Source: a virus (Duplodnaviria > Caudoviricetes). Taken from it: a stretch of 51,015 nt of DNA. Both the position numbers and the translations under genes were made by a program. Location of the stretch: positions 1-51,015 of the IMG/VR virus record IMGVR_UViG_3300025645_000111; one strand, given 5' to 3'. This document shows, piece by piece, positions 25,009 to 42,715 of the stretch. Under the pieces are notes generated by a model. It searched no databases. It was not told the origin of the DNA and saw only the letters and a list, made by a program, of their open reading frames with translations. Numbering within the stretch: the first letter of the stretch is position 1; each line of letters starts with the position of its first letter.

Positions 25009-25161
25009 TTATTTGTCCTTCCTGTTCCACAGGTCAAACAAGGTTTTTACTTTTTCCTTAATCTGCTCGATATCTGCGTGCATTTTAGCCAGCACAATTA
25101 CTAGAGTTACAAACCCTAATGCAATGGGCCAAAGTGCCCCAATGGCGTCAAGACCATCCAT
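25009..25161 (-). CDS. Small membrane protein (50 aa)
   Basis: Manual translation MDGLDAIGALWPIALGFVTLVIVLAKMHADIEQIKEKVKTLFDLWNRKDK. Confidence 0.65.
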   Translation of the reverse strand: MDGLDAIGALWPIALGFVTLVIVLAKMHADIEQIKEKVKTLFDLWNRKDK

Positions 25162-25193
25162 ATACCTGGCATCTCAAAGTTTAACACGGTGGA

Positions 25194-25544
25194 TTAAGAC
25201 GACCAGGGAACCCCTGAAGCTGTCGTTGCAGCCGCATCAATTTGCTTTTGAACCTTAGCGTCACGGTCCGCTTCTACGCGAGCTTTAGCTTCGGCAGCGG
25301 TTTCGTCGCCTTCGATCAAGCTGTCGTAGACCCAACCAAGAACATCGTTCTCTGTTAGATCAGCGTATGGAATAAAGTCTGAAGCTGAAGCATCATATGT
25401 GCATCGCAGCTTGCCTCCTTCAGAAGCAGTGTACGATGGAGTACCATCGCTTGCCGCTACCATCGACCAGTAAACTAAAAAGACACCGCCATCGGCGTCC
25501 GTGTGTTGCATGTCCTGTATGGACCATGTGTTGTTAATTGCCAT
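25194..25544 (-). CDS. Tail-fibre-associated protein
   Basis: 116 aa directly after the fibre; FIPYADLTENDVLGWV; AAGGAG RBS. Confidence 0.7.
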   Translation of the reverse strand: MAINNTWSIQDMQHTDADGGVFLVYWSMVAASDGTPSYTASEGGKLRCTYDASASDFIPYADLTENDVLGWVYDSLIEGDETAAEAKARVEADRDAKVQKQIDAAATTASGVPWSS

Positions 25545-25568: not shown

Positions 25569-28500
25569 TTATGATTCTAAGTCCGCTACTCGCGCACGTA
25601 GGGTTTGTATTTCTTTGACAAGCATTGGGACTAGCTTGCTGTAGTCCACACCCATCATTTCGTCAGGGTCTTCTAAGGCTGATACTGCTTCTGGTGCAAC
25701 GATTTGTAATTCTTGAGCTACCATACCGTAATCTTGGTGAGAGCCGTCTGCTTTCCAATCAAACTTGCGTACTTGGATGGAGTCTATCTTGCTACCTGCG
25801 TCATCAGCGTCTGCAATGTTTTCTTTGAGGCGTTGGTCTGATGAGGTGTTGTAGGCAGTCCCACTTGAATTGGATATAATTGACCCTTTGTTAGCACCGC
25901 CAAGATAGAAAAATAATTGGCTACCTGACCCAGTATCTATTGCAACCCCATAGGCGTTTGCATTAGAGTTTGTGAAATGCCCAACAAAATGTGATGCTTG
26001 GTTTTCACTTACTGTAAGTGTAGCCTGTTGTGTAGCAGTACCCATACATACTGCATTATTACCACTATCGACAAACAGCATATGGGTGTCGCTGTCAGAC
26101 TCAACGCGGAAGTCTTGCCCTGCGTTACCTGCATCGTTAAATATAGCTCCAGACGAATTTAACGCCATGAGACTAATCCAACTGATACTTGCGTCTGACC
26201 CTGTGTCAGCGGCATAGTTAAAATTATATGCGGCACTACCTGTTTGGAGCATGGTTGGGGCATAGCCCGTAAGCCGTTGTTTCCACCCAGAACCGTAGTA
26301 AGCGTTGTGTAGTAAGTAAGTGAAGTTGTTATCTACAGAGAGGTTAAAACAAGCATTGGAGTAACTAGCCCCTTGAAAAGCGTAAAGGTTATCTGCAACT
26401 ACAACGCTGTTGCCGCCTATCCATGATGGTACACCTGCGGGCATTCCCATTGAAACAATATCTTCACCACTATCAACAAACAGCATATGGGTGTTGTTGT
26501 CAGACTCAACGCGGAAGTCTAATGAGGCTGAACCACCTTCGTTAGCTATGACACCACCACTTGTGAGAGACAGGACATTTGTTACTGATCCTACATAATA
26601 ATCGTACCCGCTTGCGTAGAACCTAGCCGTGTCATACGCGGCGGTAGAGCGGTTATAGAACTGGACAAGGCTGGTAGTGGTATTTATACCCTGTGGACCG
26701 AGCTCAATACCGGACGAGCCGTCCTTAGATACTACAAACTCATAACTTGGCGCTCCGGTGCCGATCCCGACCCGATTATTATTAGCATCAACAAACAACA
26801 TATTAGCGTTGCCGTTAGACTCAACGCGGAAGTCACGGTCTACGCTTGCATTGTTTATTACTAGCTCGCTCGGCAAAATATCTAAAGCGTTTACGGCATT
26901 ACCCGCAGTCATGACTTGGATGTCCATTCCAAAATCTTCGGTGCCGTCGGTTACGTCCTTTATGTAAGAACGCACTTTCATATAATCTTTTATCGCACCT
27001 GCACTATTTCTACCTTGATAAAAAATAGTTGATAAAGGGTCATCATCAGCAGGGCTTGAGGAGTCTCTGAAAAGAACTATGTCTGGCCCAGAAGCATTAT
27101 TTGCCTGTGTGCTGTGTAAAGTTAGGTATGTTCCATCAAGAGTATTTTTTATTATTGCATCACCAAGAACGGACAATGTTTTAGTTGGTGTTGACTCGCC
27201 TATACCGACTCTATTATTGCCACCATCAACCCTTATCATATTAGCGTTGCCGTTTGACTCAACGCGGAAGTCTACATCTGCACTATCTTCGTTAAATATA
27301 ACACCACCTGCGGCACGAACATCTAGTATATCAGTGCTTGAGATGTACATCTTTCCAACAGTCTGACTGCCAGAATTAGTTTCCATATTAATGTTGCCAA
27401 TTTCGTTCGCACCATTAACAAAACTTATTACACCACTGTCAGCACCATTAGATGCTGTAGAGCCAATGTTTAATCTACCTCTGTTAGCTGTGCCAATAAT
27501 ACCTACATAGGTTCTTGCGGCAGTGCCATCGCTTGTAACATCACCGTCAGCTACGCCTATTCCGACAGAGCCGAGGTTATTGATGGTCATTTTTGCTGAG
27601 TTCACGCCAGACGTAGCTGTCTGAAACTGAAGGCCAGAAGACAAAGTTGTGCCGCTATTGACCTCTGCAACAGCGCTAATTCGAGCCATTTGTTGCGTAT
27701 TACCATCCCCATTACGATCACCAGCAAACACGATGCCGGGGCCAAAGCCTGTAGTAGTAGTGCCAGAGGAACGGGCGTTAAGGTACAGTTTCGTATCTAC
27801 AGCGTTTGTTGTACCCGTAGAACTTGATATTCTTAAACCATTTGCTTGAACAGAGCCATCACCAATACCTACACCGTCTGCACCAGCATCAACAAACAAC
27901 ATATGTGACAGGTTGTCAGACTCAACGCGGAAGTCTAGGTTCACGGCAGTATCGTTGATTACAACTTCTTGAGTATCTGCATGCAGAATACTACGGCTGT
28001 TTGTTACGTCATAAATGTCTAACGAACCGTTGGCTACTTGTCCATCCGCAATTCTCCAATTCTTAGTGGTTGCACCGGTTTTAGCAATTTCAAATCCGAC
28101 TGTACTATTTCCGCCAACTTCTGTTTTTACTAGCGTTGTGCCTGTTGATTTTTCAACATGGAGGATTTCATCGGCGGATTCAACGCCTATACCTACGTTC
28201 CCGCGATCTAACGTAAGCGTGTTGTTATATGCGGTGCCGTTGTTTGTAAGGTGAAACTGATACCCAACAACGCCGCTTGCGACTATCGCTGAGTCTAGCT
28301 CTAAGAAAAAATTATCTTCCCCCGAAGCGTAGGAACCTCTTAGTATGTTGGCGTTATCACCAAACTGTATATCTAAAGGTGCGGCAGGGGAGCTAGTAAA
28401 CAAACCAACGCGACCATTACCTGCATCAACAAACAAAGCATGAGTGTTAGCGTCTGATTCAACGCGGAAGTCCCTATCGGCACCTGTTTCATTGAAAGTG

Positions 28501-29714
28501 ACATTGCCGCCGTCTATTTGGAAATAGTTGACGTAATTTGAACCGTTGTCTGTTGAAAGGAGGTATTGAAAATCATCACTGCCCCCGCCGTTGAACAAAA
28601 GCCTATGTCGGTTTTGGAAAGTAGATGTGCTAGGGCTTTCTAAATATAATTGTAAACCGCCATTTCCGGTTCGTATATTTGCGTAATTTGCGCCAGCAAA
28701 CGCGTCGTTATCAAAAATTAATTTTGGTTCATCGGCATCCGTTGCTGTGTCGTTACGCAAGGTCAGGGTGTTTGCGCCTACAAGCGTAGCGGTTGTTCCA
28801 GTTAAAGCACCATCAATGTCCACGACATCAAGGTTAGTAGTGCCGTCTACGTCTATGTCGCCTGAGATGTCTAGGCTTGCCGCAATGATCTCGCCGCTTG
28901 CGTTGATGGCTCCGTTAATATCAATCGTAGTAGCAGCTATCTGAATCTCTGTGTCAGCAACGAGGTCGAGCTGTCCGTCTGCGCTTGAGTTTATGTATAT
29001 GGCTGAATCACGGAATTGAACTTTCTGTGCGGTTGTTACTTCTATATCAGTTGATCCAGTGGTATTACCCTGGGCCAAAACCTCAGCCAGGGTGTCAAAA
29101 GATGCTACCGAAGAATCAACATACGCCTTAATAGACTGCTGTGTGGCCAGGGCGGTTGCGCTATTGGAGGACATGTTGTCCTGGTCCAGGATGTCAGTTA
29201 CCGCAACAGCTCCGGTGCCAGAAAGTGAGTCAAACTCAACAGCCGCTGCATCAACAGTGCCAGAAGCAGTCAGGTTGACAACCGTGGTGGTGCCGGTAAG
29301 GTCAGTATCAACTAATAGGTCATAAACAACAGCGCCGCTGCCGGCACCGTCTGTGGCAATCATCTTCACCTGGCCAGCTGGGACCGCAACATTTGCGCCA
29401 GAGCCCTGGGAGAAGGTAAGGGTAGAGTTGGTGGTATTTTCAACCATCCAAACTTTAGATAAGGTGTTAGGTGCCAGGGTAACAGTACAAGCCTGGCCGC
29501 CGCCGGTCAGTTTTAAGTAAAACGACCTGGCTGAGTCAGCTGTTCCATCGGCAACAGTGATTGTATGAGTGGAGGCGTTAGCAATAGCTTCGGAGCCATA
29601 ACCCAAGGCTTCACCAATCAGTTCCAGGTTGGTGTTAGTGGTTGTGCCCCAGGTTCCAGATCCTTCACCTGTTGCCAGCTCAGTAAGCCGTAAGTTATTA
29701 ACGTAAGTAGCCAT
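25569..29714 (-). CDS. Modular tail fibre with C-terminal intramolecular chaperone (peptidase S74)
   Basis: 1381 aa; six DFRVES[DN] repeats; C-terminal SSDQRLKENI...GMVAQEL...VDYSKLVPMLVKEIQTL. Confidence 0.9.
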   Translation of the reverse strand: MATYVNNLRLTELATGEGSGTWGTTTNTNLELIGEALGYGSEAIANASTHTITVADGTADSARSFYLKLTGGGQACTVTLAPNTLSKVWMVENTTNSTLTFSQGSGANVAVPAGQVKMIATDGAGSGAVVYDLLVDTDLTGTTTVVNLTASGTVDAAAVEFDSLSGTGAVAVTDILDQDNMSSNSATALATQQSIKAYVDSSVASFDTLAEVLAQGNTTGSTDIEVTTAQKVQFRDSAIYINSSADGQLDLVADTEIQIAATTIDINGAINASGEIIAASLDISGDIDVDGTTNLDVVDIDGALTGTTATLVGANTLTLRNDTATDADEPKLIFDNDAFAGANYANIRTGNGGLQLYLESPSTSTFQNRHRLLFNGGGSDDFQYLLSTDNGSNYVNYFQIDGGNVTFNETGADRDFRVESDANTHALFVDAGNGRVGLFTSSPAAPLDIQFGDNANILRGSYASGEDNFFLELDSAIVASGVVGYQFHLTNNGTAYNNTLTLDRGNVGIGVESADEILHVEKSTGTTLVKTEVGGNSTVGFEIAKTGATTKNWRIADGQVANGSLDIYDVTNSRSILHADTQEVVINDTAVNLDFRVESDNLSHMLFVDAGADGVGIGDGSVQANGLRISSSTGTTNAVDTKLYLNARSSGTTTTGFGPGIVFAGDRNGDGNTQQMARISAVAEVNSGTTLSSGLQFQTATSGVNSAKMTINNLGSVGIGVADGDVTSDGTAARTYVGIIGTANRGRLNIGSTASNGADSGVISFVNGANEIGNINMETNSGSQTVGKMYISSTDILDVRAAGGVIFNEDSADVDFRVESNGNANMIRVDGGNNRVGIGESTPTKTLSVLGDAIIKNTLDGTYLTLHSTQANNASGPDIVLFRDSSSPADDDPLSTIFYQGRNSAGAIKDYMKVRSYIKDVTDGTEDFGMDIQVMTAGNAVNALDILPSELVINNASVDRDFRVESNGNANMLFVDANNNRVGIGTGAPSYEFVVSKDGSSGIELGPQGINTTTSLVQFYNRSTAAYDTARFYASGYDYYVGSVTNVLSLTSGGVIANEGGSASLDFRVESDNNTHMLFVDSGEDIVSMGMPAGVPSWIGGNSVVVADNLYAFQGASYSNACFNLSVDNNFTYLLHNAYYGSGWKQRLTGYAPTMLQTGSAAYNFNYAADTGSDASISWISLMALNSSGAIFNDAGNAGQDFRVESDSDTHMLFVDSGNNAVCMGTATQQATLTVSENQASHFVGHFTNSNANAYGVAIDTGSGSQLFFYLGGANKGSIISNSSGTAYNTSSDQRLKENIADADDAGSKIDSIQVRKFDWKADGSHQDYGMVAQELQIVAPEAVSALEDPDEMMGVDYSKLVPMLVKEIQTLRARVADLES
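26098..28472 (-). repeat. Six direct 17-bp repeats GACTTCCGCGTTGA(G/A)TC inside the fibre gene
   Basis: + strand gactcaacgcggaagtc at 26098, 26503, 26818, 27256 and 27919, and a one-mismatch copy at 28456; spacings 405, 315, 438, 663 and 537 bp. Confidence 0.92.
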
Positions 29715-29730
29715 TTTTTGTCCTCACTTG

Positions 29731-30714
29731 CTAAGCAGCATCGCGCCCAGCGTCAATTTCTTGGTAACCTGGGGACTGTGAAACTGATATAGAAGCCCAC
29801 CCAGGACTTTGCCCATCGTTTATTGTATTGTAGTTTGGATCTTGATTGGTGTCTATCTCTCCATACACCAAAGGAGCGCCCAAGTCTACACTTACAGCCA
29901 AGCCCACTGGGAATGCGGATGCGCCTAACTTTAACGTAACATCGCCAACCGCTACGCCAATCTCAAAGCCAACGGGCTCTACAATTGTGTTGTTGTAAAC
30001 AATGACGCTGCCAATGGCAGATGTCATCGCCAGGGATCCCGCAGTCACATTGGCTTTCGCCTGGACAGAAGCAGATCCCACTGCAGAAGTTATTGCCAGG
30101 CTGCCGGCTGTCACATTTGCTTCGGCATCAACAGCTGCAGCGCCAACAGCAGAAGTAATCGCCAGGGTGCCAGCTGTCACATTTGCTTCAGCATCAACAG
30201 CTAGGGCGCCTACTGCAGAAGTTATTGCCAGGCTGCCGGCTGTCACATTTGCTTCAGCATCTACCGTTACGCTGCCAATGGCTGAGGACATAGACAGTCC
30301 AGTCACCTGGACAACTGCGCCGGCAACTACCTGGGCAGCGCCAATACCAGACGTAATCGCCAGGGATGGGGCTGTAACATTAGCAACCGCATTGACTGTT
30401 AAGCTGCCAACGCCTGAAGTAATAACGCCGGCTGAAGATACAGCAACATCTGCTGCAGCGGTAGCGGTAACGCTGCCAACTGCCGAAGATATAGATAACC
30501 CAGTAACCTGGACGACAGCGCCAGCTACAACTTGCGGGGCACCAACTGCCGAGGTTATTGCTGGGGAAACAGGGGTCACGTTGGCTTCTGCAACAATAGT
30601 TACACTGCCAACGGCTGAGGTGATTACACCAGCGGTCGATAAAGTTACAGGCAGCGAAGTACCCCAGGCGCCTTCGCCCCAGGTTCCGCGACCCCAGCCG
30701 GTTAATGTGGCCAT
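29731..30714 (-). CDS. Tail-associated repeat protein (20-aa Val/Ala/Thr/Ser repeats)
   Basis: 327 aa; N-terminal GWGRGTWGEGAWG; AEANVTAGSLAITSAVG units with 60-bp periodicity. Confidence 0.75.
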   Translation of the reverse strand: MATLTGWGRGTWGEGAWGTSLPVTLSTAGVITSAVGSVTIVAEANVTPVSPAITSAVGAPQVVAGAVVQVTGLSISSAVGSVTATAAADVAVSSAGVITSGVGSLTVNAVANVTAPSLAITSGIGAAQVVAGAVVQVTGLSMSSAIGSVTVDAEANVTAGSLAITSAVGALAVDAEANVTAGTLAITSAVGAAAVDAEANVTAGSLAITSAVGSASVQAKANVTAGSLAMTSAIGSVIVYNNTIVEPVGFEIGVAVGDVTLKLGASAFPVGLAVSVDLGAPLVYGEIDTNQDPNYNTINDGQSPGWASISVSQSPGYQEIDAGRDAA

Positions 30715-30857
30715 TAGCCGCCTAGCTCTACTTTCGCCTCTTCAAGATGTTCTTTACACTCATTCAAGATTTGACGAACGGGCGTTGTCATGTAATCTTG
30801 TTCGAGCATGCCGTCAATCTTGGTCAGAGCATATTCCACATTTTCTAGTGCGCTCAT
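30714..30857 (-). CDS. Small hypothetical protein
   Basis: MSALENVEYAL...; GGAG RBS before ATG 30857 (ORF track start is probably over-extended). Confidence 0.6.
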   Translation of the reverse strand: MSALENVEYALTKIDGMLEQDYMTTPVRQILNECKEHLEEAKVELGG

Positions 30858-30888
30858 AACGATCTCCAAATGAAGCCCCATTATACAC

Positions 30889-31680
30889 CTATGCAGCTTC
30901 GCCGATACCTTGGAATTTGCGGTCCAGGATACGGCGTACTTTAGAGTAAGTGATATCAGCAGCGCAAGCGTGGAGCGATGCGACCTGCTTAGCAATCTTC
31001 CTGGGGCCCAGCCCTCGGTCCCGCAGTTTGTAAATCGTCATCAACACATCCTGCTCTTCGGGGATCTCCTCCAGGCGAGTCCTGGTCTTATTGCCGTGCT
31101 TCTCCTGGACCTTAGCGTAGCCATAAGGAGCGCTGCCACCAATGAAGTATCCGCGAGAGGCCCAATCTACCTTGCCATCACCAAATCGGTCCTTGATGGT
31201 GGAGTGTTCTATCTCAGCAACCGCTGAAAGCACCATAAGCATGATCTGGTTAGCCATTTCGTTCATATCAAACTTAGATCTCAGGCCCTTCTGGCCTTCT
31301 GGCTTAGGATATACGATGGGCACCTCGCCAAACTGCTCACAAAAGAACAATGTAATGCCAATATCTTGCAATACGGGGATAATTGACAGCAAATCGGCGC
31401 TGGACCTGGATAATCGGTCCAATCGAGTGCAAACAATGACATCATGACGATCAATGATGTCGGTGAGCTCTTTACTGCCTGGTCGATCCAGGATTGGCCT
31501 GGTGCCGGACACGCCGTCATCTACCAGGAACTCTGTAACCTCTCGGTTATACTTCTCTTTAACAAAGTCAGCAATCTGCTGCTGCTGAACCTCTAAGGAC
31601 ACGCCAGATCGTACCTGCTCTTTAGTCGATACCCTGACATAGCCATAAATATTGTTGATTTGCTTGAGCGGATTAATCAT
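30889..31680 (-). CDS. Serine recombinase (resolvase/invertase catalytic domain with a short C-terminal DNA-binding region)
   Basis: YGYVRVSTKEQ (catalytic Ser), DDGVSG, RP, RLDRLSRS, GSAPYGY; 263 aa. Confidence 0.9.
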   Translation of the reverse strand: MINPLKQINNIYGYVRVSTKEQVRSGVSLEVQQQQIADFVKEKYNREVTEFLVDDGVSGTRPILDRPGSKELTDIIDRHDVIVCTRLDRLSRSSADLLSIIPVLQDIGITLFFCEQFGEVPIVYPKPEGQKGLRSKFDMNEMANQIMLMVLSAVAEIEHSTIKDRFGDGKVDWASRGYFIGGSAPYGYAKVQEKHGNKTRTRLEEIPEEQDVLMTIYKLRDRGLGPRKIAKQVASLHACAADITYSKVRRILDRKFQGIGEAA

Positions 31681-31931: not shown

Positions 31932-32113
31932 TAACGTGCCCTCCCTTGAAGAAGAGCACGGATCATCTTGGCTTCCTTCGCTTTAATGCGAGGGTCCTTC
32001 TTGATCTCTTTCTCCACAGAATCAACCCTGATAATCTTTGACACGCCAGGTATGAAGCAATCATCTACCATTTTCTTGCGCTCTGCTCTTGTCATGCTTT
32101 CCCAGTTACCCAT
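31931..32113 (-). CDS. Hypothetical protein
   Basis: 60 aa in a coupled operon. Confidence 0.65.
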   Translation of the reverse strand: MGNWESMTRAERKKMVDDCFIPGVSKIIRVDSVEKEIKKDPRIKAKEAKMIRALLQGRAR

Positions 32114-32360: not shown

Positions 32361-32387
32361 TTCTCACTCCTTAATTACTACATTGCT

Positions 32388-32416
32388 AATGTATCCTATA
32401 TCGTGTCGTTGTGCAA
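32388..32416 (-). promoter_or_regulatory. Sigma70-like promoter with AACGACACGATA spacer box
   Basis: TTGCAC-aacgacacgatatagga(17)-TACATT. Confidence 0.75.
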
Positions 32417-32450
32417 GCATAAATATACTTTAATTTAATTTAATAAATAG

Positions 32451-32479
32451 TTGCACAACGACACGTTATTAGGTATATT
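32451..32479 (+). promoter_or_regulatory. Sigma70-like promoter with spacer box
   Basis: TTGCAC-aacgacacgttattagg(17)-TATATT. Confidence 0.75.
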
Positions 32480-32510
32480 GTAAATGTAAGTTAATTATTA
32501 AGGAGAAGTT

Positions 32511-33551: not shown

Positions 33552-33580
33552 TTGTACAACGACACGATAAGTGTTACAAT
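33552..33580 (+). promoter_or_regulatory. Sigma70-like promoter with spacer box, upstream of the HD hydrolase
   Basis: TTGTAC-aacgacacgataagtgt(17)-TACAAT with extended -10 TGn. Confidence 0.78.
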
Positions 33581-33607
33581 AAACTGTATTGAGAAGGGAG
33601 GTGTGTT

Positions 33608-34048
33608 GTGGTTGCTGGGTTTCAAAAGGCTTTAGAGGTTGCCGTTGCCGAGTATGAGGAGCTGTTCGATAAGAACGGCTTGCCTATCATATTCCACGCG
33701 ATGGCCGTAGCCAAACCCATGATGGAGAAGTATGGCGAGACGCATGCTATTGTTGGATTGTTGCATGACGCTTACGAGAACGTCTGGAATACTGAGCAAG
33801 ATTTCATCGAGTGCGGTGAGATCTTTGGTCCTGAAATAGAGGCTGCGGTTCGAGCGGTCACTAAGGCCCCTGGTGAGGATTACTTGGAAGAATACATCCC
33901 CAGGTGTTTTGCCAACCCGATTGCAAAAGCAGTTAAGGTGTGCGACCTCAAAAACAACTACAATGGTCTTGACAGTATACCCAAGCCTGCCGATAGAAAA
34001 AGATTGGCAGCCAAGTATGCAGCAGCATTGCTCATGGCAGGAGAATAA
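33608..34048 (+). CDS. HD-domain hydrolase, SpoT/Mesh1-like small alarmone hydrolase
   Basis: DKNGLPIIFHAMAVA...GLLHDAYE...FGPEIEAAVRAVTK...VKVCDLKNN; GGGAGG RBS. Confidence 0.85.
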   Translation: MVAGFQKALEVAVAEYEELFDKNGLPIIFHAMAVAKPMMEKYGETHAIVGLLHDAYENVWNTEQDFIECGEIFGPEIEAAVRAVTKAPGEDYLEEYIPRCFANPIAKAVKVCDLKNNYNGLDSIPKPADRKRLAAKYAAALLMAGE

Positions 34049-34049
34049 T

Positions 34050-34283
34050 ATGGAAAAGATAGAGAGTTATTGGACCTGGGAAGAAGCGCCAGGCGTTTTA
34101 GTTGACTACGGTGACGATAATTTTGGTGGATTTCACCTAGCCCAGGGCTCTGACGAATGGGAAAAACAGACCGAGTGGGATGTCGTTCAGTGGTTTAAAG
34201 AGGGTAAAAAGCTATCTAAGCCCAGTTTTGAAATGAAATACGGAAAGATCGGGGACCAGCTTCCACAACTCCCCCTTTCATAA
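34050..34283 (+). CDS. Small Trp-rich acidic protein (candidate immunity protein)
   Basis: 77 aa from ATG 34050 (AGGAG RBS), coupled to the HD gene; immunity role is inference. Confidence 0.65.
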   Translation: MEKIESYWTWEEAPGVLVDYGDDNFGGFHLAQGSDEWEKQTEWDVVQWFKEGKKLSKPSFEMKYGKIGDQLPQLPLS

Positions 34284-35484
34284 ACTTATCCACAAGCTGC
34301 TCCACAATAGCAGGATCCGCTGCATCAAAAGCAGCACCAAACAGGCGCCTCTGCTCAGCAAGCGCCTTATTGTATAGCTTCAGCTTAGTACCAGGTATCT
34401 CGTGGTTGTACCGGCCTTCTAGCTTCCTGGAGTAATCATACCAGCGGTGAGCTCCCTGCTCCCCCGCATCAAACATTTCAGGCGTCTTAATCTGGATCTC
34501 AGCAACAATCTTCTTGCCGGTAGCCGGATCATCAACCAGGACATTCATCTTCCGGTCAAAGTAACCAGATTCAGGTATGCGCTGCCAACCTCGGTCGATA
34601 GTCGTGTACATCTGGCCTATTTGACTCACAGCCTCTTCTGCCTGGTCTGCAGTATCTATGTAAATCGTTGTTCTTACGCCATCGGTGAAGTCTGCCGGCG
34701 CCAGGCCCTTTCTCTCAACCTTGGTGGCTATGCTTTTCGGCGTCTTGACCTCAACATCAAACTGGCTGCCATCTTTTAGGTTGATAAACTTATCAGCTTT
34801 CTTGCCACCAACTGACTTAGCCACTGAGTCAATGTTAGCCTGGAATGAAGGGTTCACTGTGTTAGCTCGCTGGACCATGGCTTCAACCGAATTAAGATCA
34901 CCTTGCTGCCGTTTAAGTGCAGCCTCAATCTCTCTCACTCGCTCAATACCCAGCTCCTGGAATACAGGGGTGGTTCTGATCGGACCATCTACCTTGGTGC
35001 CCTGCTCAATCGCTGCAACTAACCTGGCGGCATCAATGGCTTCAACACCATCACCTACCCTGGCAACATCCTGGGGCAGATTATCAATTCCACCGGTCAG
35101 CTTCATGGCTTTTCTAAGTGCGCCTGGTGCCTTCAACGCGGTCCCCAGCGTAGCTCCGAGCGGCGGAATCACGTAGGTCGCATCACCCAGGACGCCTAAC
35201 GCCTGCAGCGCAGGATCTAGGATGTTGCCCTGGCGAATGTTCTCCAGGATAGAAGGATTGTTTTCGGCATCAAATATATCGGTGAGACCTGTATCAGACG
35301 ATGGCATTCCAGGCATATTACCGGTAGCATCAACAGTCGCTGCCCCAGGAAGTAGTTGCGCTGCAAAATACGCAGCCTGCTCCTCAGTCAGAAAAGGATC
35401 ACTCTTCTCTTCGGGATCGCGCATCATATCACTGACGCTGCCCCCAAGGTTAAAAGCGAATATGTCGATATCGTCTCTATTCAC
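34216..35484 (-). CDS. RelA/SpoT-family synthetase (SAS-like) domain protein with a long N-terminal extension
   Basis: VKTPKSIATK, TDGVRTTI, ESGYFDRKMNV, AEIQIKT, AHRWY; GTG start with GAGGTG RBS. Confidence 0.82.
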   Translation of the reverse strand: MNRDDIDIFAFNLGGSVSDMMRDPEEKSDPFLTEEQAAYFAAQLLPGAATVDATGNMPGMPSSDTGLTDIFDAENNPSILENIRQGNILDPALQALGVLGDATYVIPPLGATLGTALKAPGALRKAMKLTGGIDNLPQDVARVGDGVEAIDAARLVAAIEQGTKVDGPIRTTPVFQELGIERVREIEAALKRQQGDLNSVEAMVQRANTVNPSFQANIDSVAKSVGGKKADKFINLKDGSQFDVEVKTPKSIATKVERKGLAPADFTDGVRTTIYIDTADQAEEAVSQIGQMYTTIDRGWQRIPESGYFDRKMNVLVDDPATGKKIVAEIQIKTPEMFDAGEQGAHRWYDYSRKLEGRYNHEIPGTKLKLYNKALAEQRRLFGAAFDAADPAIVEQLVDKFMKGGVVEAGPRSFRISFQNWA

Positions 35485-36390: not shown

Positions 36391-36575
36391 TATTTTTTAT
36401 AGCCTCCCCCCGCCTTCTTATATTCAGAAGCCAGCAATTGAGCCTTCCTGGCAGACCATTGACCCGCCTTTCCGCCCTTAGTACCAGCCTTGATACGATT
36501 GAACAGGTTTTTACGCATTGTGGGCTTAGTATAATTGCCCGAAGCATTCACCGTCGATTTTTTTTTGACCGCCAT
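36390..36575 (-). CDS. Small highly basic protein
   Basis: 61 aa; GQWSARKAQLLA...GGGY. Confidence 0.75.
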   Translation of the reverse strand: MAVKKKSTVNASGNYTKPTMRKNLFNRIKAGTKGGKAGQWSARKAQLLASEYKKAGGGYKK

Positions 36576-36993
36576 AACTACCCTCCTTAAAGTATTTACC
36601 CAATAGTATAAACCATTGGTCCAAAGTCATTACCACGGTTTGCGCGTTGTCGCGCTCGAAACCAGGGTTGATCGCGTGAATCGGCACGCAGACCCTTATG
36701 GCTTTGTTGTTAAACTTATAGATAAGGACGGGAGTTCTGTCACCGCACGCCTCAAGCACCTGGTCCCACCAGGCGGGGGCATACCACCAGCCACTCTTAT
36801 ACGCCTTGGCCTCAATAGCATGACCAGGTATCTCAATGTCACACATGCCTGCAGTCTGATATTGATCGAGGTTGCGCTTACAGGTGAGGTCCTGGCCATT
36901 ACCATCGACTACCCCGTTATCCGCGAAAAAAGTATTTAGGCGCTTGACCAAATCACGCTCGAAGGCAGCTCCTTTGTTGCGTGAATCAGCCAT
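36526..36993 (-). CDS. PD-(D/E)XK nuclease, Holliday-junction resolvase-like
   Basis: SRNKGAAFER...CDI...AIEAK. Confidence 0.7.
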   Translation of the reverse strand: MADSRNKGAAFERDLVKRLNTFFADNGVVDGNGQDLTCKRNLDQYQTAGMCDIEIPGHAIEAKAYKSGWWYAPAWWDQVLEACGDRTPVLIYKFNNKAIRVCVPIHAINPGFERDNAQTVVMTLDQWFILLGKYFKEGSYGGQKKIDGECFGQLY

Positions 36994-38503: not shown

Positions 38504-40666
38504 TCACATATCCCACTTCGGGGCCGGTGGGAAGGTGTCATCTGCGGTGACTACCGCGTCATAATCCAGGTCATATATCTTCTTGCCATTGCTATATCTT
38601 GGTTCAACACCACGATCAGCGAGCACCCTGGCAGCGTCTTTGAAGTCCGCCATCCTGGGGTTGTTGATTCCCATGTCTCTGAGCAAGTGCGTCATTTGCA
38701 CTGGCTTCTTGTCTGCACTGTCAAACCGTATGTATTGTAGCAGTAGGTCTTCGACCGCGCTCTGGGTTCTAAAGAACTCGTTGCTGTCCTGCAGCATGAC
38801 CCGCTCTTCACTTGTAAGGAACCAGTTACGATCTCCCTTGGCATACATCGTCTGCTTGATCTCGGCCCACACTTGTTGCATGTTCAAGCCATGGCGCCAG
38901 TCTATCTCTGTCACCGGTACAACCCAGAACCGTCTGTTGCCGCTGGTGTCGATCAAGAACTCCCTCTCATTCACACTGGCATAGAACGCTGTGCGCCGCT
39001 GGTAATTGCTAAACGCTCGGTCATAAGGTAGGCGTAACTCATCGCTGCGCTTGGTTAGGAATGCCTTGAGCTGGTCAATATCTGCACGCTTGAAGGTGGA
39101 TCCCAACTCTCCGAGCTCGCATATCCAATGGCTAACACACTGCTTCACACTGTCCTTGTCCTGGGGATTCAGTGTAGCGCCTTCCAGCAGCCACTCTTTG
39201 TTCGGTGCCAGGCTGTTGAACCACTGCGTCTTACCGACTGCCTGGGCTCCCTGGAATACCAGGATACCCTCCAAATTAGCTCCGCCCTCCTCGCATGCTG
39301 CAGCAACACATCCTTGCAGCCACTTCTTCATCAGCATCTCTTTGAGCGGCTCATTAGGACTCTTAATGGTATCTAGGAACATCTGCAGCCTGGCCTTTCC
39401 ATCCCAGGGCTCACTCTCCATCCACTCCTTGACCGGATTGTACTCCCTGGCCAGCAGCTTCAGATTGAACCGGATACGTTCATGGGGGATCCCCATCTTG
39501 ATAGCACGGTCCTCGATCTCAATAATCGCCGCGTCATCCTTTAGGTCAGCGATAAACTTCTGGTTGGGTATGTGTATCTCGATCGCCTTCTTAATGACGT
39601 TGTAGTCCACCTCTATCTGATTGGTAACCAGGACGCCACGATGATTGTCCTTGGTGTGCAGGAAGCGCCCATTGCTGTTGCGCTCAAAGTCATACTCCTC
39701 CGGTATCCTCACCTCTTGCAGCGCCGGAATCACCTCTCCCTGCAGCGCTTCTTTGTGATCGTTGTAATCCCCCTTAGACTGCGGCATCAACACCTCAGCC
39801 TGGCCACCCCCACTCTTCACCGCCTGGGCTGCCTTAATTGCCTCTTTCTCGCCGGTCGCATTGTCATCGAAATCCGCGATGAAAATATGCTTGGCCTCAG
39901 CGAAGTGCTTGAATATGACTTCCGCAACAGGAGCCAGGTTGTAAGCATCAAAGCTCACCACCACCGGCTGCTTCATATCCTGGTAGTAACTGGCAGCTGT
40001 CGCATACCCTTCACAGTAGTTGATAGTGTGAGCGCCCTGGAGTAGGTCCTGGCCCAGGATGAAGAAGCTGCCCTTCTTCTTGGAACCAGTAAGGAACATC
40101 TTCCCCCCACCATCGTCAATATACTGCAGACCGACAATACTGAGAGATGCGTCCAGGAGAGGGATCATCAAGCGCCCATCGTTGTGCTGCTTGAGACCGT
40201 GACTTAATACATTCTTCTTGGTTAGGTAAGGGTGCTCGCTGCAGTCCTGGGCACCCTCCCAGATATTAGTGCTGCGCTTAGCAGCTCGGTTGTTCTTCTC
40301 TTCTTTCTTTGCCTGAGCTTCTGCCTGGAGCTGCTTGATCTCCTCTCGCTGCTCATCAGTCATCTTATAGCTGCTGCTGTTGTTCGGCTTCCAGGTTGCG
40401 GTGGGGTTAGCACTATCTACACGATAGTCACCGCATCGGCCAAAAGGGACGGTCTGGTCCGCCCAAAATTGATACCAACCAGTGAGCTTCTGCTTGCCAC
40501 CGACATCCATATAGGCTCTGCCAATGCTGCCATCGACCAGGAGGCCCTTCTTTTGGTCCAGTTGTAAGCCATTGTCTGCCAGGAACGATTCAAACTCTTG
40601 CCGGAAATTGCCCGTTATGGGCCTTGATTTATCTTTTTTATTGGTTGCACTGACTAGAAATGACAT
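38504..40666 (-). CDS. Toprim primase fused to a VapE-family helicase
   Basis: HPYLTKK, LQYI, CEGYATA, IADFDD (Toprim); FQGAQAVGKT Walker A, ELGEL, RLPYDR, GNRRFWV (VapE); probable start 40666. Confidence 0.85.
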   Translation of the reverse strand: MSFLVSATNKKDKSRPITGNFRQEFESFLADNGLQLDQKKGLLVDGSIGRAYMDVGGKQKLTGWYQFWADQTVPFGRCGDYRVDSANPTATWKPNNSSSYKMTDEQREEIKQLQAEAQAKKEEKNNRAAKRSTNIWEGAQDCSEHPYLTKKNVLSHGLKQHNDGRLMIPLLDASLSIVGLQYIDDGGGKMFLTGSKKKGSFFILGQDLLQGAHTINYCEGYATAASYYQDMKQPVVVSFDAYNLAPVAEVIFKHFAEAKHIFIADFDDNATGEKEAIKAAQAVKSGGGQAEVLMPQSKGDYNDHKEALQGEVIPALQEVRIPEEYDFERNSNGRFLHTKDNHRGVLVTNQIEVDYNVIKKAIEIHIPNQKFIADLKDDAAIIEIEDRAIKMGIPHERIRFNLKLLAREYNPVKEWMESEPWDGKARLQMFLDTIKSPNEPLKEMLMKKWLQGCVAAACEEGGANLEGILVFQGAQAVGKTQWFNSLAPNKEWLLEGATLNPQDKDSVKQCVSHWICELGELGSTFKRADIDQLKAFLTKRSDELRLPYDRAFSNYQRRTAFYASVNEREFLIDTSGNRRFWVVPVTEIDWRHGLNMQQVWAEIKQTMYAKGDRNWFLTSEERVMLQDSNEFFRTQSAVEDLLLQYIRFDSADKKPVQMTHLLRDMGINNPRMADFKDAARVLADRGVEPRYSNGKKIYDLDYDAVVTADDTFPPAPKWDM

Positions 40667-40740
40667 TATTTTGTTGATCCTCCGCTTAGAATGTGTAGAA
40701 TAGTGCAAACTTATACAAACAATCAAGAGGTATTTGCAAA

Positions 40741-41496
40741 ATGGCACTAACAGCAAGCGCAGGATCGGGTGGTGAATCCACCTTTGAAACCGTACCACCA
40801 GGCTCTTACGAGGCTATCTGCTATCGACTTGTCGATGCAGGCACAGCGGAGGAAGATTACAAGGGAGAGATCTCCAAGAAGCATAAAATTTATATCTTCT
40901 GGGAAATCCCTGAGCTCACACTGAGCGATGGCCGCCCATATTCTATCTTCCACGGGTACACTTTGTCACTTAATGAGCGCAGTAATCTGCGTCGAGATCT
41001 CCAGGCATGGCGTAACCGGCCATTCACTGAGGAAGAGCTGCAGGCTTTTGACCTGACCAAGCTGCTCGGTGTGACCTGTAAGATCAACGTGGTCCTAAAT
41101 AGCAACGGCAACGCAAAGGTTGATGGCATTTTCTGCTCTGACCAGGGCGCCAAGCGCGTTGAAACCACGAACCCGACCTCAGTGTTTGACCTCGAAGAGT
41201 ACACCAAAGAATTTTCCGGCGAGAGCTGCGAGGCCAGCAAGGCGATGTGCGATGTCTTTGAAGAGCTGCCACGCTTCATCCAATGGCGAATTGCCGGTTG
41301 CGATGAAGACGGTAGAGACCAGCAGGCCCCGTGCTTTGAAGTGGCTGCAGCCTGGAAGAAAGGCGGCAATGTAACCAGCACACCACCTGTGTCTGGCTTA
41401 GAAGCAATGGCTGCTGATAAAGCAAAAGCGACAAAGAAGTCAAAAAAGAAGGAAGAGCCTGAAGAGGACTTCATCGACGACGACATCCCGTTTTAG
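40741..41496 (+). CDS. Single-stranded DNA-binding-like replication protein
   Basis: 251 aa with acidic DDDIPF C-terminal tail; divergent from the primase. Confidence 0.7.
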   Translation: MALTASAGSGGESTFETVPPGSYEAICYRLVDAGTAEEDYKGEISKKHKIYIFWEIPELTLSDGRPYSIFHGYTLSLNERSNLRRDLQAWRNRPFTEEELQAFDLTKLLGVTCKINVVLNSNGNAKVDGIFCSDQGAKRVETTNPTSVFDLEEYTKEFSGESCEASKAMCDVFEELPRFIQWRIAGCDEDGRDQQAPCFEVAAAWKKGGNVTSTPPVSGLEAMAADKAKATKKSKKKEEPEEDFIDDDIPF

Positions 41497-41505
41497 GAAC
41501 CTGCT

Positions 41506-41943
41506 ATGAAAATTGAACTCACAGACGACCAGCGAGAAGACCTGGAGGCGTTCCAGGTCAATGGCGGCCTGAGCAATACAGCAATGGCTGGGCACCTGGG
41601 TGTTAGCCCTGGGGTTTGGTCAAGAGCAATGGAAGGCCAGCCGGTACGCATCAGCAGCTACAAGAAACTGGTGGCGTGCCTGGAGCCTGACGTTGATGAC
41701 CAGATGGCAGCTGCCCACGATATGGTCAACTCACCCAACCATTATGCTGACTCCGAGATAGAGTGCATTGACGCTATGGTTGCAGCCTTTGGCACCGAGC
41801 GTGTCAGGGCTTACTGTGAGCTTGCTGCATTCAAGTATCAGTGGCGATGTGGGAAGAAACCAGGCAATGACGCCGACCAGGAAAAGGCCAAATCAGTTTG
41901 GTATTTACGTTACTCAATGGGGGACGACCCCCGAAAGGATTAG
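41506..41943 (+). CDS. Cro-like HTH fused to a DUF3310-like domain
   Basis: LSNTAMAGHLGVSPGVWSRAMEG then DMVNSPNHY...IECID...KYQWRCGKK...VWYL. Confidence 0.7.
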   Translation: MKIELTDDQREDLEAFQVNGGLSNTAMAGHLGVSPGVWSRAMEGQPVRISSYKKLVACLEPDVDDQMAAAHDMVNSPNHYADSEIECIDAMVAAFGTERVRAYCELAAFKYQWRCGKKPGNDADQEKAKSVWYLRYSMGDDPRKD

Positions 41944-41944
41944 T

Positions 41945-42715
41945 ATGGATTTTAAACCAGGCATATACGAAGACCTCGATTATCCAACATATGACTCCAT
42001 CCCCGCATGGAGATCCCACGATTTAACCTCGATAGCCAAGTGCCCATTCACCTGGAAGAACCGCAAGTTCAACAACTCGCCGGCTCTCCTGGAGGGCAGG
42101 GTGCAGCACACCGTCTTTCTGGAGCATCACAAGTTCCACGACGAATTTGCCCTGGAGCCCAATGTGGACCGGCGCACTAAGGTGGGCAAAGAAGAGTATG
42201 CCGATTGGCTTACCTCGGTTGGTGACCGCACCCCTTGCAAGCAAGATATGTATGAAGTCTGCATGGAGCGCCGAGAGGTAGTTGCTGAGTACATACCCAA
42301 GCCAGAGCATCGAGTAGAGCTCACGCTTTGCTGGGAATGGTTGGGGCAGCCATGTAAGGGCAAATTAGATTGGCATACTGGCACTGACATCTGGGACCTC
42401 AAGACTTGCAGAGACGCATCCCCCAGGGGCTTCAAGTCAGCTATTAACAGCTTCAAGTATCACCAGCAAGCAGCCTATTATGTTGCCGGCTGCCGAGCCG
42501 TTGGTCTTCCGACTGAGAAGTTTTACTTCCTGGCCCAGGAGAAGATGGCCCCTTACCCCTATGCTGTCTATACCCTTTCAGATGAAGCCATAGCCTACGC
42601 AGATGCTAAGAATGAACAGGCCCTGGCAATCGGTATGGCGTGCAGGGAGAGTGACATCTACCTGCCTTATAACCAGGAAGGCATCAAGGAGTTTGACATA
42701 GGTGATCTTTACTAA
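41945..42715 (+). CDS. PD-(D/E)XK exonuclease VIII/RecE-like protein
   Basis: GRVQH, CKGKLDW, DLKT, YHQQAAYY; probable start 41945. Confidence 0.82.
   Translation: MDFKPGIYEDLDYPTYDSIPAWRSHDLTSIAKCPFTWKNRKFNNSPALLEGRVQHTVFLEHHKFHDEFALEPNVDRRTKVGKEEYADWLTSVGDRTPCKQDMYEVCMERREVVAEYIPKPEHRVELTLCWEWLGQPCKGKLDWHTGTDIWDLKTCRDASPRGFKSAINSFKYHQQAAYYVAGCRAVGLPTEKFYFLAQEKMAPYPYAVYTLSDEAIAYADAKNEQALAIGMACRESDIYLPYNQEGIKEFDIGDLY

What the first reader, a model, noticed from the sequence alone, without database searches (positions are those of the whole stretch)
26098..31680. Tail fibre built as an in-frame cassette array bounded by six DNA-conserved direct repeats, next to a serine recombinase
Seen: GACTTCCGCGTTGAGTC occurs five times identically and once with one mismatch (26098, 26503, 26818, 27256, 27919, 28456). 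It separates largely dissimilar modules of 135, 105, 146, 221 and 179 aa. All six copies use the same synonymous codons (GAC TTC CGC GTT), which selection on the DFRVES peptide alone does not require. The 17-mer has dyad ends (GACT...AGTC) and a central CGCG. Some pairs share longer flanks (26098 with 26503; 26818 with 27256). A serine recombinase lies about 1.2 kb upstream of the fibre start. Established: serine invertases (Gin, Cin) switch fibres using inverted sites and silent cassettes. Inference: direct, in-frame sites would instead allow deletion, insertion or exchange of whole modules, an integron-like receptor-binding diversification system. It could be driven by the recombinase or by short-homology recombination.
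Basis: partly seen in the sequence, partly recalled or inferred. Interest (0 to 1): 0.85.

Follow-up and report, generated by a model that had tools for sequence, protein, structure and literature searches.

The report
Codon-locked recombination joints in phage fibre
A 17-letter DNA word repeated six times inside a phage tail-fibre gene marks the seams where related aquatic phages have swapped, gained or lost fibre modules, most likely by ordinary homology-based recombination rather than through the neighbouring recombinase gene.

Summary
Six in-frame copies of GACTTCCGCGTTGAGTC (five exact) lie in one 1381-aa, S74-tipped tail-fibre gene (25569-29714, minus strand). A serine recombinase gene lies 1.2 kb upstream.

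The word is the core of a ~33-aa repeat unit that opens each fibre module. The exact 17-mer occurs in at least 119 IMG/VR loci, often 2-4 times per gene.

Modules between cores are shuffled among phages: 236 modules fall into 146 families, in different orders and neighbourhoods. Sequence identity steps down at or beside the cores, in the two best pairs within a few bases after them.

Copies within one fibre share core codons (same-codon rate 0.77 within, 0.45 between loci). Other conserved codons of the unit barely do (0.54 against 0.51). This argues against peptide selection, genome codon bias or recent duplication alone, and fits homology-dependent exchange.

The recombinase link is not supported. 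None of 10 complete or near-complete relatives carries a resolvase domain, and all sites are direct repeats.

This is a large new example of motif-mediated recombination, known from T-even fibre genes. The scan noted the same kind of joint before on other DNA (e1-6315198, e1-5989888). No recombination event was observed directly.

The parts
25569..29714 (-). Tail-fibre gene, 1381 aa (P0001). It has a conserved N-terminal anchor, a variable shaft with six joints and a C-terminal intramolecular chaperone.
   Evidence: Pfam PF13884 at aa 1292-1344; PHROG tail-fibre families
28456..28472 (-). Core copy 1 (one mismatch, GAA), DFRVES at aa 415
27919..27935 (-). Core copy 2 (exact), aa 594. Identity to L087 falls from 97-100% upstream to 73% in the windows just after it and to 27% from gene nt 1843.
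27256..27272 (-). Core copy 3 (exact), aa 815; start of a module of the widespread family 0
26818..26834 (-). Core copy 4 (exact), aa 961. The similarity to L077 and L003 (89%) starts exactly here.
26503..26519 (-). Core copy 5 (exact), aa 1066. The similarity to L090 starts exactly here.
26098..26114 (-). Core copy 6 (exact), aa 1201. Near-100% identity to L090 ends one base after it.
26040..28498 (-). Span of the six repeat units of about 75-100 nt (26040-26140, 26446-26520, 26760-26860, 27198-27298, 27861-27961, 28398-28498). Consensus: xFNExxxADxDFRVESDxNxxMLFVDAGNNRVGIG.
28806..28875 (-). A second kind of joint: the last 70 nt of the conserved N-terminal anchor (aa 280-303). 39 loci share it, and their alignment ends pile up at gene nt 908-915.
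   Evidence: contig joints at 28800 and 28810
25683..25841 (-). Peptidase_S74 (chaperone of endosialidase) domain, aa 1292-1344. This block is shared at 76-89% DNA identity with 12 distinct alignments in other loci, starting at gene nt 3856-3874.
29731..30714 (-). Conserved upstream neighbour of the fibre (327 aa, no family). Homologues lie in 56 fetched loci.
25194..25544 (-). Conserved downstream neighbour, DUF7936 (116 aa). Homologues lie in 81 fetched loci.
30889..31680 (-). Small serine recombinase, 263 aa. It has the catalytic domain with R16 and S18 and a short C-terminal tail. It is a lineage-specific neighbour and not part of the joint system on present evidence.
41768..42715 (+). Exonuclease VIII (RecE)-like PDDEXK gene; the phage's own candidate recombination function
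   Evidence: Pfam DUF3799; phrog_412, E 3.6e-55

Best explanation
The fibre shaft is a string of beta-rich modules. Each module opens with the same ~33-aa unit (..FNE..AD-DFRVES-x5-MLFVD-xGNN-VGIG..). The first 17 nt of that unit (GAC TTC CGC GTT GAG TC) are kept identical between the copies of one gene and across a large pool of aquatic phage fibres. Every copy sits in the same codon phase. Homologous recombination between two fibre genes, or between two copies in one gene, that crosses over in this identical block therefore joins modules in frame. Two crossovers replace or insert a module. One unequal crossover deletes or duplicates modules. The exchange partners are co-infecting phages or prophages. 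The enzymes are the general recombination functions of the host or the phage (this phage encodes an exonuclease VIII-like protein), not a site-specific enzyme.

Shown: the repeat anatomy, the module shuffling among phages, the identity steps at the cores, and the core-specific sharing of codons within a gene.

Inferred: that crossovers occur in the core itself, which enzymes act, and that the result changes host recognition.

The neighbouring serine recombinase is an accessory gene of one sub-lineage. Its role is unknown.
For: (1) Spread. Of 218 copies, 213 are read as DFRVES in open frames of 200 aa or more.

(2) Different backbones. The window's terminase has a homologue (60-61% identity) in 2 of 5 near-complete records that carry the 17-mer and none in the other 3.

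(3) Shuffling. 84 fibres with two or more joints give 236 modules in 146 families. The window reads 42-145-0-6-39, L107 reads 125-16-42-0, L003 reads 5-20-6-45 and L090 reads 113-114-39. Families 25 and 26 occur in opposite orders in L018 and L058.

(4) Breakpoints against the window. L090 is 97-100% identical over gene nt 3286-3615, runs through core 6, and drops to 53% directly after it. L087 is 97-100% identical up to core 2, drops to 73% directly after it and to 27% from gene nt 1843. Four of eight shaft alignments start exactly at a core.

(5) Breakpoints all against all. For alignments of 85% identity or more, 28 of 60 starts lie within 5 nt of a core start (random placement gives a mean of 1.85 and a maximum of 8). 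41 of 71 ends lie inside a repeat unit (null mean 20, maximum 32). In 12 of 19 events identity falls from 0.89 or more to 0.73 or less across a core.

(6) DNA-level signal. In samples chosen by peptide pattern only, copies within one locus share core codons in 446 of 582 comparisons (0.77), against 0.45 between loci (0 of 1000 permutations reach this). Other conserved codons of the unit give 0.54 against 0.51 (the first sample alone is). Whole units are no more alike within a gene than between loci (0.638 against 0.635), so recent tandem duplication is not the cause.

(7) Codon choice is column-specific. Asp at column 0 is GAC in 61 of 85 units, but Asp at column 15 is GAC in 4 of 83 (p 6e-21). 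Phe is TTC in 60 of 85 against 9 of 79. General codon bias or accuracy selection therefore does not explain it.

(8) The phage carries an exonuclease VIII-like gene and a RusA/PDDEXK-like gene.

(9) Precedent. [quoted passage not shown]
Against: No recombination event was seen directly. Only assembled contigs were available, and the joints they show at the repeats have short sides and come from mixed communities.

Seventeen identical bases are few for RecA-type recombination. This is my recollection of minimal homology lengths, not a call.

Where a local alignment starts and ends is partly set by conservation itself. The core is identical whatever its ancestry, so the crossover can only be placed at or next to the core, except in the near-identical pairs.

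With alignments of 95% identity or more, only 1 of 7 informative starts and 2 of 13 ends lie at a core, with a third end at +33. One search did not restrict these to the array region.

Other recurrent seams exist away from cores, at gene nt about 909, 1543, 2143, 2276 and 3098.

Across the whole family the core codons do vary. Pairwise identity at the five synonymous sites is 0.48-0.57, against 0.49 expected from background codon usage. Only 13 of 94 peptide-selected sites are the exact 17-mer.

Alignment counts include both directions of a pair and related contigs, so events are not independent.
Confidence: 0.7

Rival explanations
1. Recombinase-driven cassette system. The neighbouring serine recombinase recognises the 17-mer and deletes, inserts or exchanges modules between direct sites.
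For: A serine recombinase with an intact catalytic motif lies 1.2 kb upstream. Homologues at 55-74% identity sit in the same gene order (orf84, recombinase, orf327, fibre) in 7 fetched loci, which are 6 contigs. The core has 4-nt dyad ends.
Against: A resolvase domain is found in 0 of 10 complete or near-complete records with such fibres, and a homologue in only 5 of 43 loci with 1200 nt or more of upstream sequence. All six sites are direct repeats. For a resolvase or invertase, direct sites would give irreversible deletion. The conserved block is 17 nt and only 4 of 8 positions per half-site are symmetric (read from the sequence); known serine-recombinase sites are longer (recalled). Different fibres use different synonymous core versions. 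The one inverted pair that flanks the block (25162/32020) is absent from the relatives L028 and L002. The protein falls below every curated NCBIfam cut-off.
Confidence: 0.04
2. Protein-only explanation. DFRVES is a structurally essential joint. Recombination is illegitimate or happens anywhere, and selection keeps only products joined at domain borders. Core codon identity is left over from common descent.
For: The unit is a strongly conserved peptide, with 10 invariant columns among the six copies. Seams also occur at places that are not cores. Family-wide pairwise identity at the core's synonymous sites equals the background expectation.
Against: Within one fibre the core codons agree far more than other equally conserved codons of the same unit (0.77 against 0.54). 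Whole units are no more alike within genes than between them. Descent or duplication would affect both alike. Codon choice is column-specific and runs opposite to background usage. Near-identical tracts end within a few bases after the core in independent pairs.
Confidence: 0.15
3. The core is kept for an RNA or translation function, such as a hairpin, a ribosome pause for co-translational trimer assembly, or another nucleic-acid signal. Recombination at it is a side effect.
For: The core has dyad ends (GACT..AGTC). Its codon choice is column-specific.
Against: RNAalifold on the six units gives a consensus energy of -3.3 kcal/mol, a covariation term of -0.03, and 0 of 16 pairs with compensatory change. 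A fixed signal would not come in several synonymous versions that are each uniform within a gene.
Confidence: 0.04

Closest known systems
Motif-mediated recombination in T-even distal tail-fibre and adhesin genes (gp37 His boxes, gp38 glycine-rich motifs; Tetart et al. 1996 and 1998 as cited in Trojet et al. 2011, PMC3157838)
   Same: Short conserved motifs are interspersed with hypervariable segments in a host-recognition gene. Exchanges map within or near the motifs. Chimeras acquire new combinations of specificity determinants. No dedicated recombinase is involved. I read passages of PMC3157838. The 1996 and 1998 papers were seen only as citations in it.
   Different: Here a single 17-nt word recurs up to 8 times in one open frame, so internal shaft modules, not only the tip, can be inserted, lost or re-ordered. 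The word is shared by phages with unrelated terminases. It occurs in several synonymous versions, each uniform within a gene. No experimental crosses exist for this family.
Serine-invertase fibre switches (Gin with the Mu G segment, Cin with the P1 C segment)
   Same: A small serine recombinase gene lies next to a tail-fibre gene.
   Different: The sites here are direct repeats, lie in one frame inside one gene, and have no silent opposite-strand cassettes. The recombinase is absent from most relatives.
Integrons
   Same: The picture is an array of exchangeable units bounded by repeated sites.
   Different: The genome has no tyrosine integrase. The sites are not folded attC-like sites. The units are in-frame parts of one protein, not promoterless genes.
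S74-chaperone trimeric fibres (T5 L-shaped fibre pb1, endosialidases, Bdellovibrio Bd2439 fibre)
   Same: The fibre has a C-terminal Peptidase_S74 domain. The all-beta module model has its weak best Foldseek matches to the Bd2439 fibre (E 0.015) and the T5 pb1 C-terminal domain (E 0.28).
   Different: No solved structure matches by sequence. No Foldseek match reaches E 0.001. The DFRVES unit is in no Pfam or NCBIfam model that the scans reported.

Membership tests
Conserved-motif homologous-recombination joints of phage fibre genes (T-even type) | Short conserved motifs alternate with variable segments inside a fibre or adhesin gene | tested here: met
   Six units separate five mutually dissimilar modules
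Conserved-motif homologous-recombination joints of phage fibre genes (T-even type) | Relatives are mosaics whose breakpoints lie in or beside the motifs | tested here: met
   28 of 60 alignment starts lie within 5 nt of a core, against a null mean of 1.85.
Conserved-motif homologous-recombination joints of phage fibre genes (T-even type) | The motif is conserved as DNA, giving a tract of identity for crossing over | tested here: met
   17 nt are identical in 5 of 6 copies. The within-locus same-codon rate in the core is 0.77, against 0.45 between loci.
Conserved-motif homologous-recombination joints of phage fibre genes (T-even type) | Crosses produce chimeras joined at the motifs | not testable with these tools
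   Needs mixed infections. Only assembled contigs could be laid.
Serine-invertase fibre switch (Gin/Cin type) | A serine recombinase is encoded beside the fibre gene | tested here: met
   PF00239, E 3e-25. It aligns with gamma-delta resolvase so that S18 falls on the catalytic serine.
Serine-invertase fibre switch (Gin/Cin type) | Inverted recombination sites flank an invertible segment | tested here: not met
   All six cores are on one strand. The only flanking inverted pair is not conserved in relatives.
Serine-invertase fibre switch (Gin/Cin type) | Alternative fibre ends are encoded on the opposite strand | tested here: not met
   No copy of the 17-mer (up to two mismatches) lies on the plus strand. 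The fibre is one continuous frame.
Integron | A tyrosine integrase (IntI) is present | tested here: not met
   PF00589 has 0 matches in the 97%-complete genome
Integron | attC-type sites that fold as imperfect palindromes | tested here: not met
   There is no consensus structure: -3.3 kcal/mol and 0 compensatory pairs
Diversity-generating retroelement | A reverse transcriptase with a template/variable repeat pair | tested here: not met
   PF00078 has 0 matches in the genome
Peptidase_S74 intramolecular-chaperone fibres | A C-terminal S74 chaperone domain | tested here: met
   PF13884, E 6.9e-12, aa 1292-1344
Peptidase_S74 intramolecular-chaperone fibres | Autoproteolytic release of the chaperone after trimerisation | not tested
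   The catalytic residues were not examined

The most novel reading that the evidence does not exclude
The 17-nt core is more than a by-product of a conserved peptide. It is an address tag maintained because it makes modules exchangeable. Each synonymous 'dialect' of the core (for example ..CGCGTTGAGTC, ..CGCGTCGAGAG, ..CGAGTAGAATC) would define a compatibility group. Within a group, fibre modules move freely between unrelated phage backbones. This would be a recombinase-free, homology-addressed cassette system that structures a global pool of host-recognition modules. In this sub-lineage the exchange might be boosted by a dedicated factor such as the neighbouring serine recombinase.
Probability: 0.25. 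Interest if true: 0.75.

Novelty: new variant of a known kind. Interest (0 to 1): 0.55.

Why it matters
Tail fibres decide which bacteria a phage can infect. This family is very large: 1553 related proteins at E 0.001 or better, almost all unnamed and from environmental metagenomes. Its cultured members include Roseobacter phages.

The data show where, and probably how, modules move between phages with unrelated backbones. They also give a simple sequence signature for finding such seams: a core whose codons are uniform within a gene but differ between genes, while the neighbouring codons are free.

The result also offers natural, in-frame junction points for studying fibre architecture. It gives a testable case of whether selection can maintain DNA identity for the sake of exchangeability.

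Tried and rejected
Recombinase link. I looked for a resolvase domain in 10 complete or near-complete relatives and found none. I looked for homologues beside the fibre locus and found them in 5 of 43 loci with enough upstream sequence. I checked the inverted pair that flanks the block (25162-25195 and 32020-32053; 34 nt, 82%) and did not find it in L028 or L002. I rejected the recombinase as the driver.

RNA structure of the units: none.

Recent duplication or intragenic conversion of whole units: rejected, because units are no more alike within genes than between loci.

General codon bias or accuracy selection: rejected, because codon choice is column-specific and opposite for the same residue.

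Universal DNA conservation of the core across the whole family: rejected. Pairwise identity at the synonymous sites equals the background expectation.

Read-level test. Only Logan contigs were available, with no raw reads. Of 15 listed joints, 12 lie inside the fibre gene. Most of their ends fall in repeat units or at 27439 and 28800/28810. Most sides are under 30 letters, likeness was set to 90, and the samples are communities. They therefore show other fibres with other neighbours. They do not show rearrangement of this phage. Stretches without cover, and runs holding only part of the words, are not used as evidence.

Alignments of 95% identity or more gave too few informative ends (7 starts, 13 ends).

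Bacterial genomes. The exact 17-mer gave 29 stretches in 596 billion bases, 28 of them single hits in unrelated, mostly soil, lineages. That is about what chance gives by my own arithmetic (about 70 expected for a random 17-mer on both strands). Only L236, with two copies 735 nt apart, looks like a fibre. No host could be named from this.

Structure. The monomer model of one module has pLDDT 74. No Foldseek match reaches E 0.001, so the matches are leads only. No solved structure matches the fibre by sequence.

Literature. 'DFRVES' occurs in 0 papers. Three word searches listed no description of this repeat family; I saw listings and abstract starts only. The passages on the CRP-902 fibre in PMC10149686 name it as a tail-fibre gene and describe no repeats in it.
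Full report
WHAT IS THERE

The window is a 51,015-nt virus record, about 97% complete, with 49% G+C. The 17-mer GACTTCCGCGTTGAGTC occurs five times exactly and once with one mismatch. All copies are on the minus strand, and none of 100 shuffles gave a match.

All six copies lie in one open frame, 25569-29714 (-), of 1381 aa. They are read as DFRVES at residues 415, 594, 815, 961, 1066 and 1201. The protein ends in a Peptidase_S74 chaperone domain (aa 1292-1344) and matches PHROG tail-fibre families.

The 17-mer is the core of a longer unit, consensus xFNExxxADxDFRVESDxNxxMLFVDAGNNRVGIG. The units are 62-84% identical as DNA over 75-100 nt. The five module bodies between units show no significant similarity to each other (best E 0.19).

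A 263-aa serine recombinase (PF00239, E 3e-25) lies at 30889-31680 (-), 1175 nt upstream of the fibre start.

HOW WIDE IT IS

The exact 17-mer is present in at least 119 IMG/VR loci. Of 218 copies in these loci, 213 are read as DFRVES inside open frames of 200 aa or more, in 114 of 119 loci. The loci range from 34 to 53% G+C.

The window's terminase has a homologue in 2 of 5 near-complete records that carry the word and none in the other 3. The word therefore crosses phage backbones.

A protein search with residues 808-1100 gave 1553 relatives at E 0.001 or better. Nearly all are unnamed and from environmental sources.

Two cultured Roseobacter phages have such fibres. In CRP-902, 3 of 4 copies read GACTTCCGCGTTGAG followed by AGT. 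CRP-345 uses NFRIES variants.

In 596 billion bases of bacterial and archaeal genomes the word gave only 29 stretches, nearly all single. That is about what chance allows by my own arithmetic.

MODULES ARE SHUFFLED

I cut 84 fibres with two or more joints at the motif. The 236 modules fall into 146 similarity families. The same module sits in different company:
- The window reads 42-145-0-6-39.
- L107 reads 125-16-42-0.
- L003 reads 5-20-6-45.
- L090 reads 113-114-39.
- Families 25 and 26 occur in either order (L018 against L058).

Module order is therefore not fixed in the population.

BREAKPOINTS

BLASTN of the window's fibre against the fetched loci gives eight distinct shaft alignments of 150 nt or more at 75% identity or more. 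Four start exactly at a core and two more within 26 nt. Four end 35-59 nt after the start of the next core.

At base resolution, L090 is 97-100% identical to the window over gene nt 3286-3615. It runs through core 6 and falls to 53% directly behind it. L087 is 97-100% identical up to core 2, falls to 73% directly behind it and to 27% from gene nt 1843.

All against all (85% identity or more, ends not at contig ends, inside the arrays):
- 28 of 60 alignment starts lie within 5 nt of a core start. Random placement gives a mean of 1.85 and a maximum of 8 in 2000 trials.
- 41 of 71 ends lie inside a unit (null mean 20, maximum 32).
- Only 6 of 71 ends lie within 5 nt of the core end.

In 19 distinct events where an alignment runs past a core, mean identity is 0.90 in the last 120 nt before the core and 0.69 in the 60 nt after it. 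In 12 of the 19 events identity drops from 0.89 or more to 0.73 or less. The other 7 show no step.

Caveats:
- Alignment ends are partly set by conservation.
- Both directions of each pair were counted.
- Contigs are related, so events are not independent.
- At 95% identity or more only 1 of 7 starts and 2 of 13 ends sit at a core.
- Other seams recur at gene nt about 909, 1543, 2143, 2276 and 3098.

IS THE DNA CONSERVATION MORE THAN THE PEPTIDE NEEDS?

Within the window, copy pairs use the same codon at 77 of 90 identical core residues, against about 0.39 expected from the gene's codon usage. In the rest of the unit the figure is 92 of 152.

In 80 loci chosen by peptide pattern only, 13 of 94 DFRVES sites are the exact word, against 0.0007 expected from codon usage. 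Codon choice is column-specific. Asp at column 0 is GAC in 61 of 85 units, but Asp at column 15 is GAC in 4 of 83. Phe at column 1 is TTC in 60 of 85, but Phe at column 13 is TTC in 9 of 79 (p 6e-21 and 3e-15). Codon bias or accuracy selection would push both columns the same way.

Across the whole family, however, the core codons do vary. Pairwise identity at the five synonymous sites is 0.48-0.57, whatever the flank similarity, against 0.49 expected from background.

The decisive pattern is within against between genes. I merged two peptide-selected samples: 150 loci, which collapse to 118 groups, 30 of them with two or more units, 171 units in all.
- Core residues use the same codon in 446 of 582 within-group comparisons (0.77), against 0.45 between groups. 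None of 1000 permutations reaches this.
- The other conserved residues of the same unit give 638 of 1180 (0.54), against 0.51. Here 21 of 1000 permutations reach it (the first sample alone is).

Whole units are no more alike within a gene than between loci (0.638 against 0.635). Each of the window's units has a closer relative in another locus (72-82%) than in its own gene (56-75%).

Each fibre therefore keeps one version of the core across copies whose surroundings have separate histories. Several such versions exist. Homology-dependent exchange predicts exactly this, because a module can only enter between cores that match the recipient's. A core-limited conversion process would give the same result. 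Peptide selection, genome codon bias or tandem duplication would not.

THE RECOMBINASE

The protein is a generic small serine recombinase. It aligns with gamma-delta resolvase so that Ser18 falls on the catalytic serine. It is below every curated NCBIfam cut-off and matches PHROG integrase and invertase families.

Homologues at 55-74% identity occur in the same gene order in 7 of the 201 loci then in hand, which are 6 contigs. Of 43 loci with the conserved upstream gene and 1200 nt or more of further sequence, 5 have one. No resolvase domain occurs in any of 10 complete or near-complete records with such fibres, including the two cultured phages.

The sites are direct repeats, short and only weakly symmetric. 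The genome has no tyrosine integrase and no reverse transcriptase. I therefore treat the recombinase as a lineage-specific neighbour of unknown role.

OTHER CHECKS

The units have no conserved RNA structure.

An AlphaFold2 model of module 3 with both flanking units (17-sequence alignment) is all-beta, with pLDDT 74. The unit forms three short strands at FRV, MIRV (the MLFV position of the consensus) and RVGI. Its best Foldseek matches are trimeric fibres (Bdellovibrio Bd2439, E 0.015; T5 L-shaped fibre, E 0.28). None reaches E 0.001.

The phage encodes an exonuclease VIII-like protein (41768-42715) and a RusA/PDDEXK-like protein (36526-36993). It therefore has recombination functions of its own.

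Public runs hold the gene only as assembled contigs. Their joints cluster at the repeat units and at 27439 and 28800/28810, but most sides are short and the samples are communities. They agree with mosaic relatives and prove nothing about this phage.

COMPARISON AND VERDICT

The closest known case is recombination at conserved motifs in T-even fibre and adhesin genes (PMC3157838, passages read; Tetart 1996 and 1998 seen only as citations there). This family works like that.

It differs in four ways:
- One 17-nt word recurs up to eight times in a single frame.
- Internal modules, not only tips, are exchanged.
- The word spreads over unrelated backbones.
- The core comes in gene-uniform synonymous versions.

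It is not a Gin/Cin switch, an integron or a DGR. In each case a defining feature was tested and not met.

Earlier notes of this scan describe the same kind of joint on other DNA (e1-6315198, e1-5989888). I did not find the repeat in the searched literature.

I rate the homology-joint reading at 0.7, novelty as a new variant of a known kind, and interest at 0.55.

Noticed in passing
window 28806-28875 (-), gene nt 840-909: The last 70 nt of the conserved N-terminal anchor are shared by 39 fetched loci; 11 alignments under 120 nt reach 90% identity or more, and the best seen are 94-97%. Their alignment ends pile up at gene nt 908-915. This is a second, different seam between the anchor and the variable shaft.
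   Followed up: partly
window 25162-25195 and 32020-32053: A 34-nt inverted pair (82% complementary) brackets the whole block from DUF7936 through the fibre, orf327, the recombinase and the small ORFs. By a rough estimate it is unlikely by chance. No equivalent pair was found in the recombinase-bearing relatives L028 and L002.
   Followed up: partly
window 33608-35484: A RelA/SpoT-like protein (34216-35484, PF04607, just above the Pfam cut-off) faces a weak HD-domain protein (33608-34048).
   Followed up: no
window 32379-32488 and 33552-33581: A 55-nt imperfect palindrome lies between divergent genes. A 30-nt box (80%) is repeated 1.1 kb away, and it looks like repeated promoter or operator boxes (compare e1-6338078).
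   Followed up: no
window 40741-42715 (+) and 36526-36993 (-): An exonuclease VIII-like gene follows a 251-aa ORF of no family, which could be its annealing partner. A RusA/PDDEXK-like resolvase lies elsewhere. Together they may form a phage recombination kit.
   Followed up: partly
window 25016-25170 (-): A small unannotated ORF of about 50 aa with a hydrophobic stretch lies just downstream of DUF7936. It is possibly a membrane protein.
   Followed up: no
window gene nt 1513-1544 (about 28171-28202): A partial copy of the unit's second half (GNVGIGV) sits in the middle of module 1. It coincides with a seam shared by L070 and L001, so parts of the unit can also act as joints.
   Followed up: partly
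window 38504-40798 (-): A Toprim plus VapE-like primase/helicase-type replication protein.
   Followed up: no
L236 (Gammaproteobacteria MAG contig, 7047 nt): This is the only bacterial-genome record with two copies of the exact 17-mer, 735 nt apart. It is probably a phage or prophage fragment binned with the MAG.
   Followed up: no
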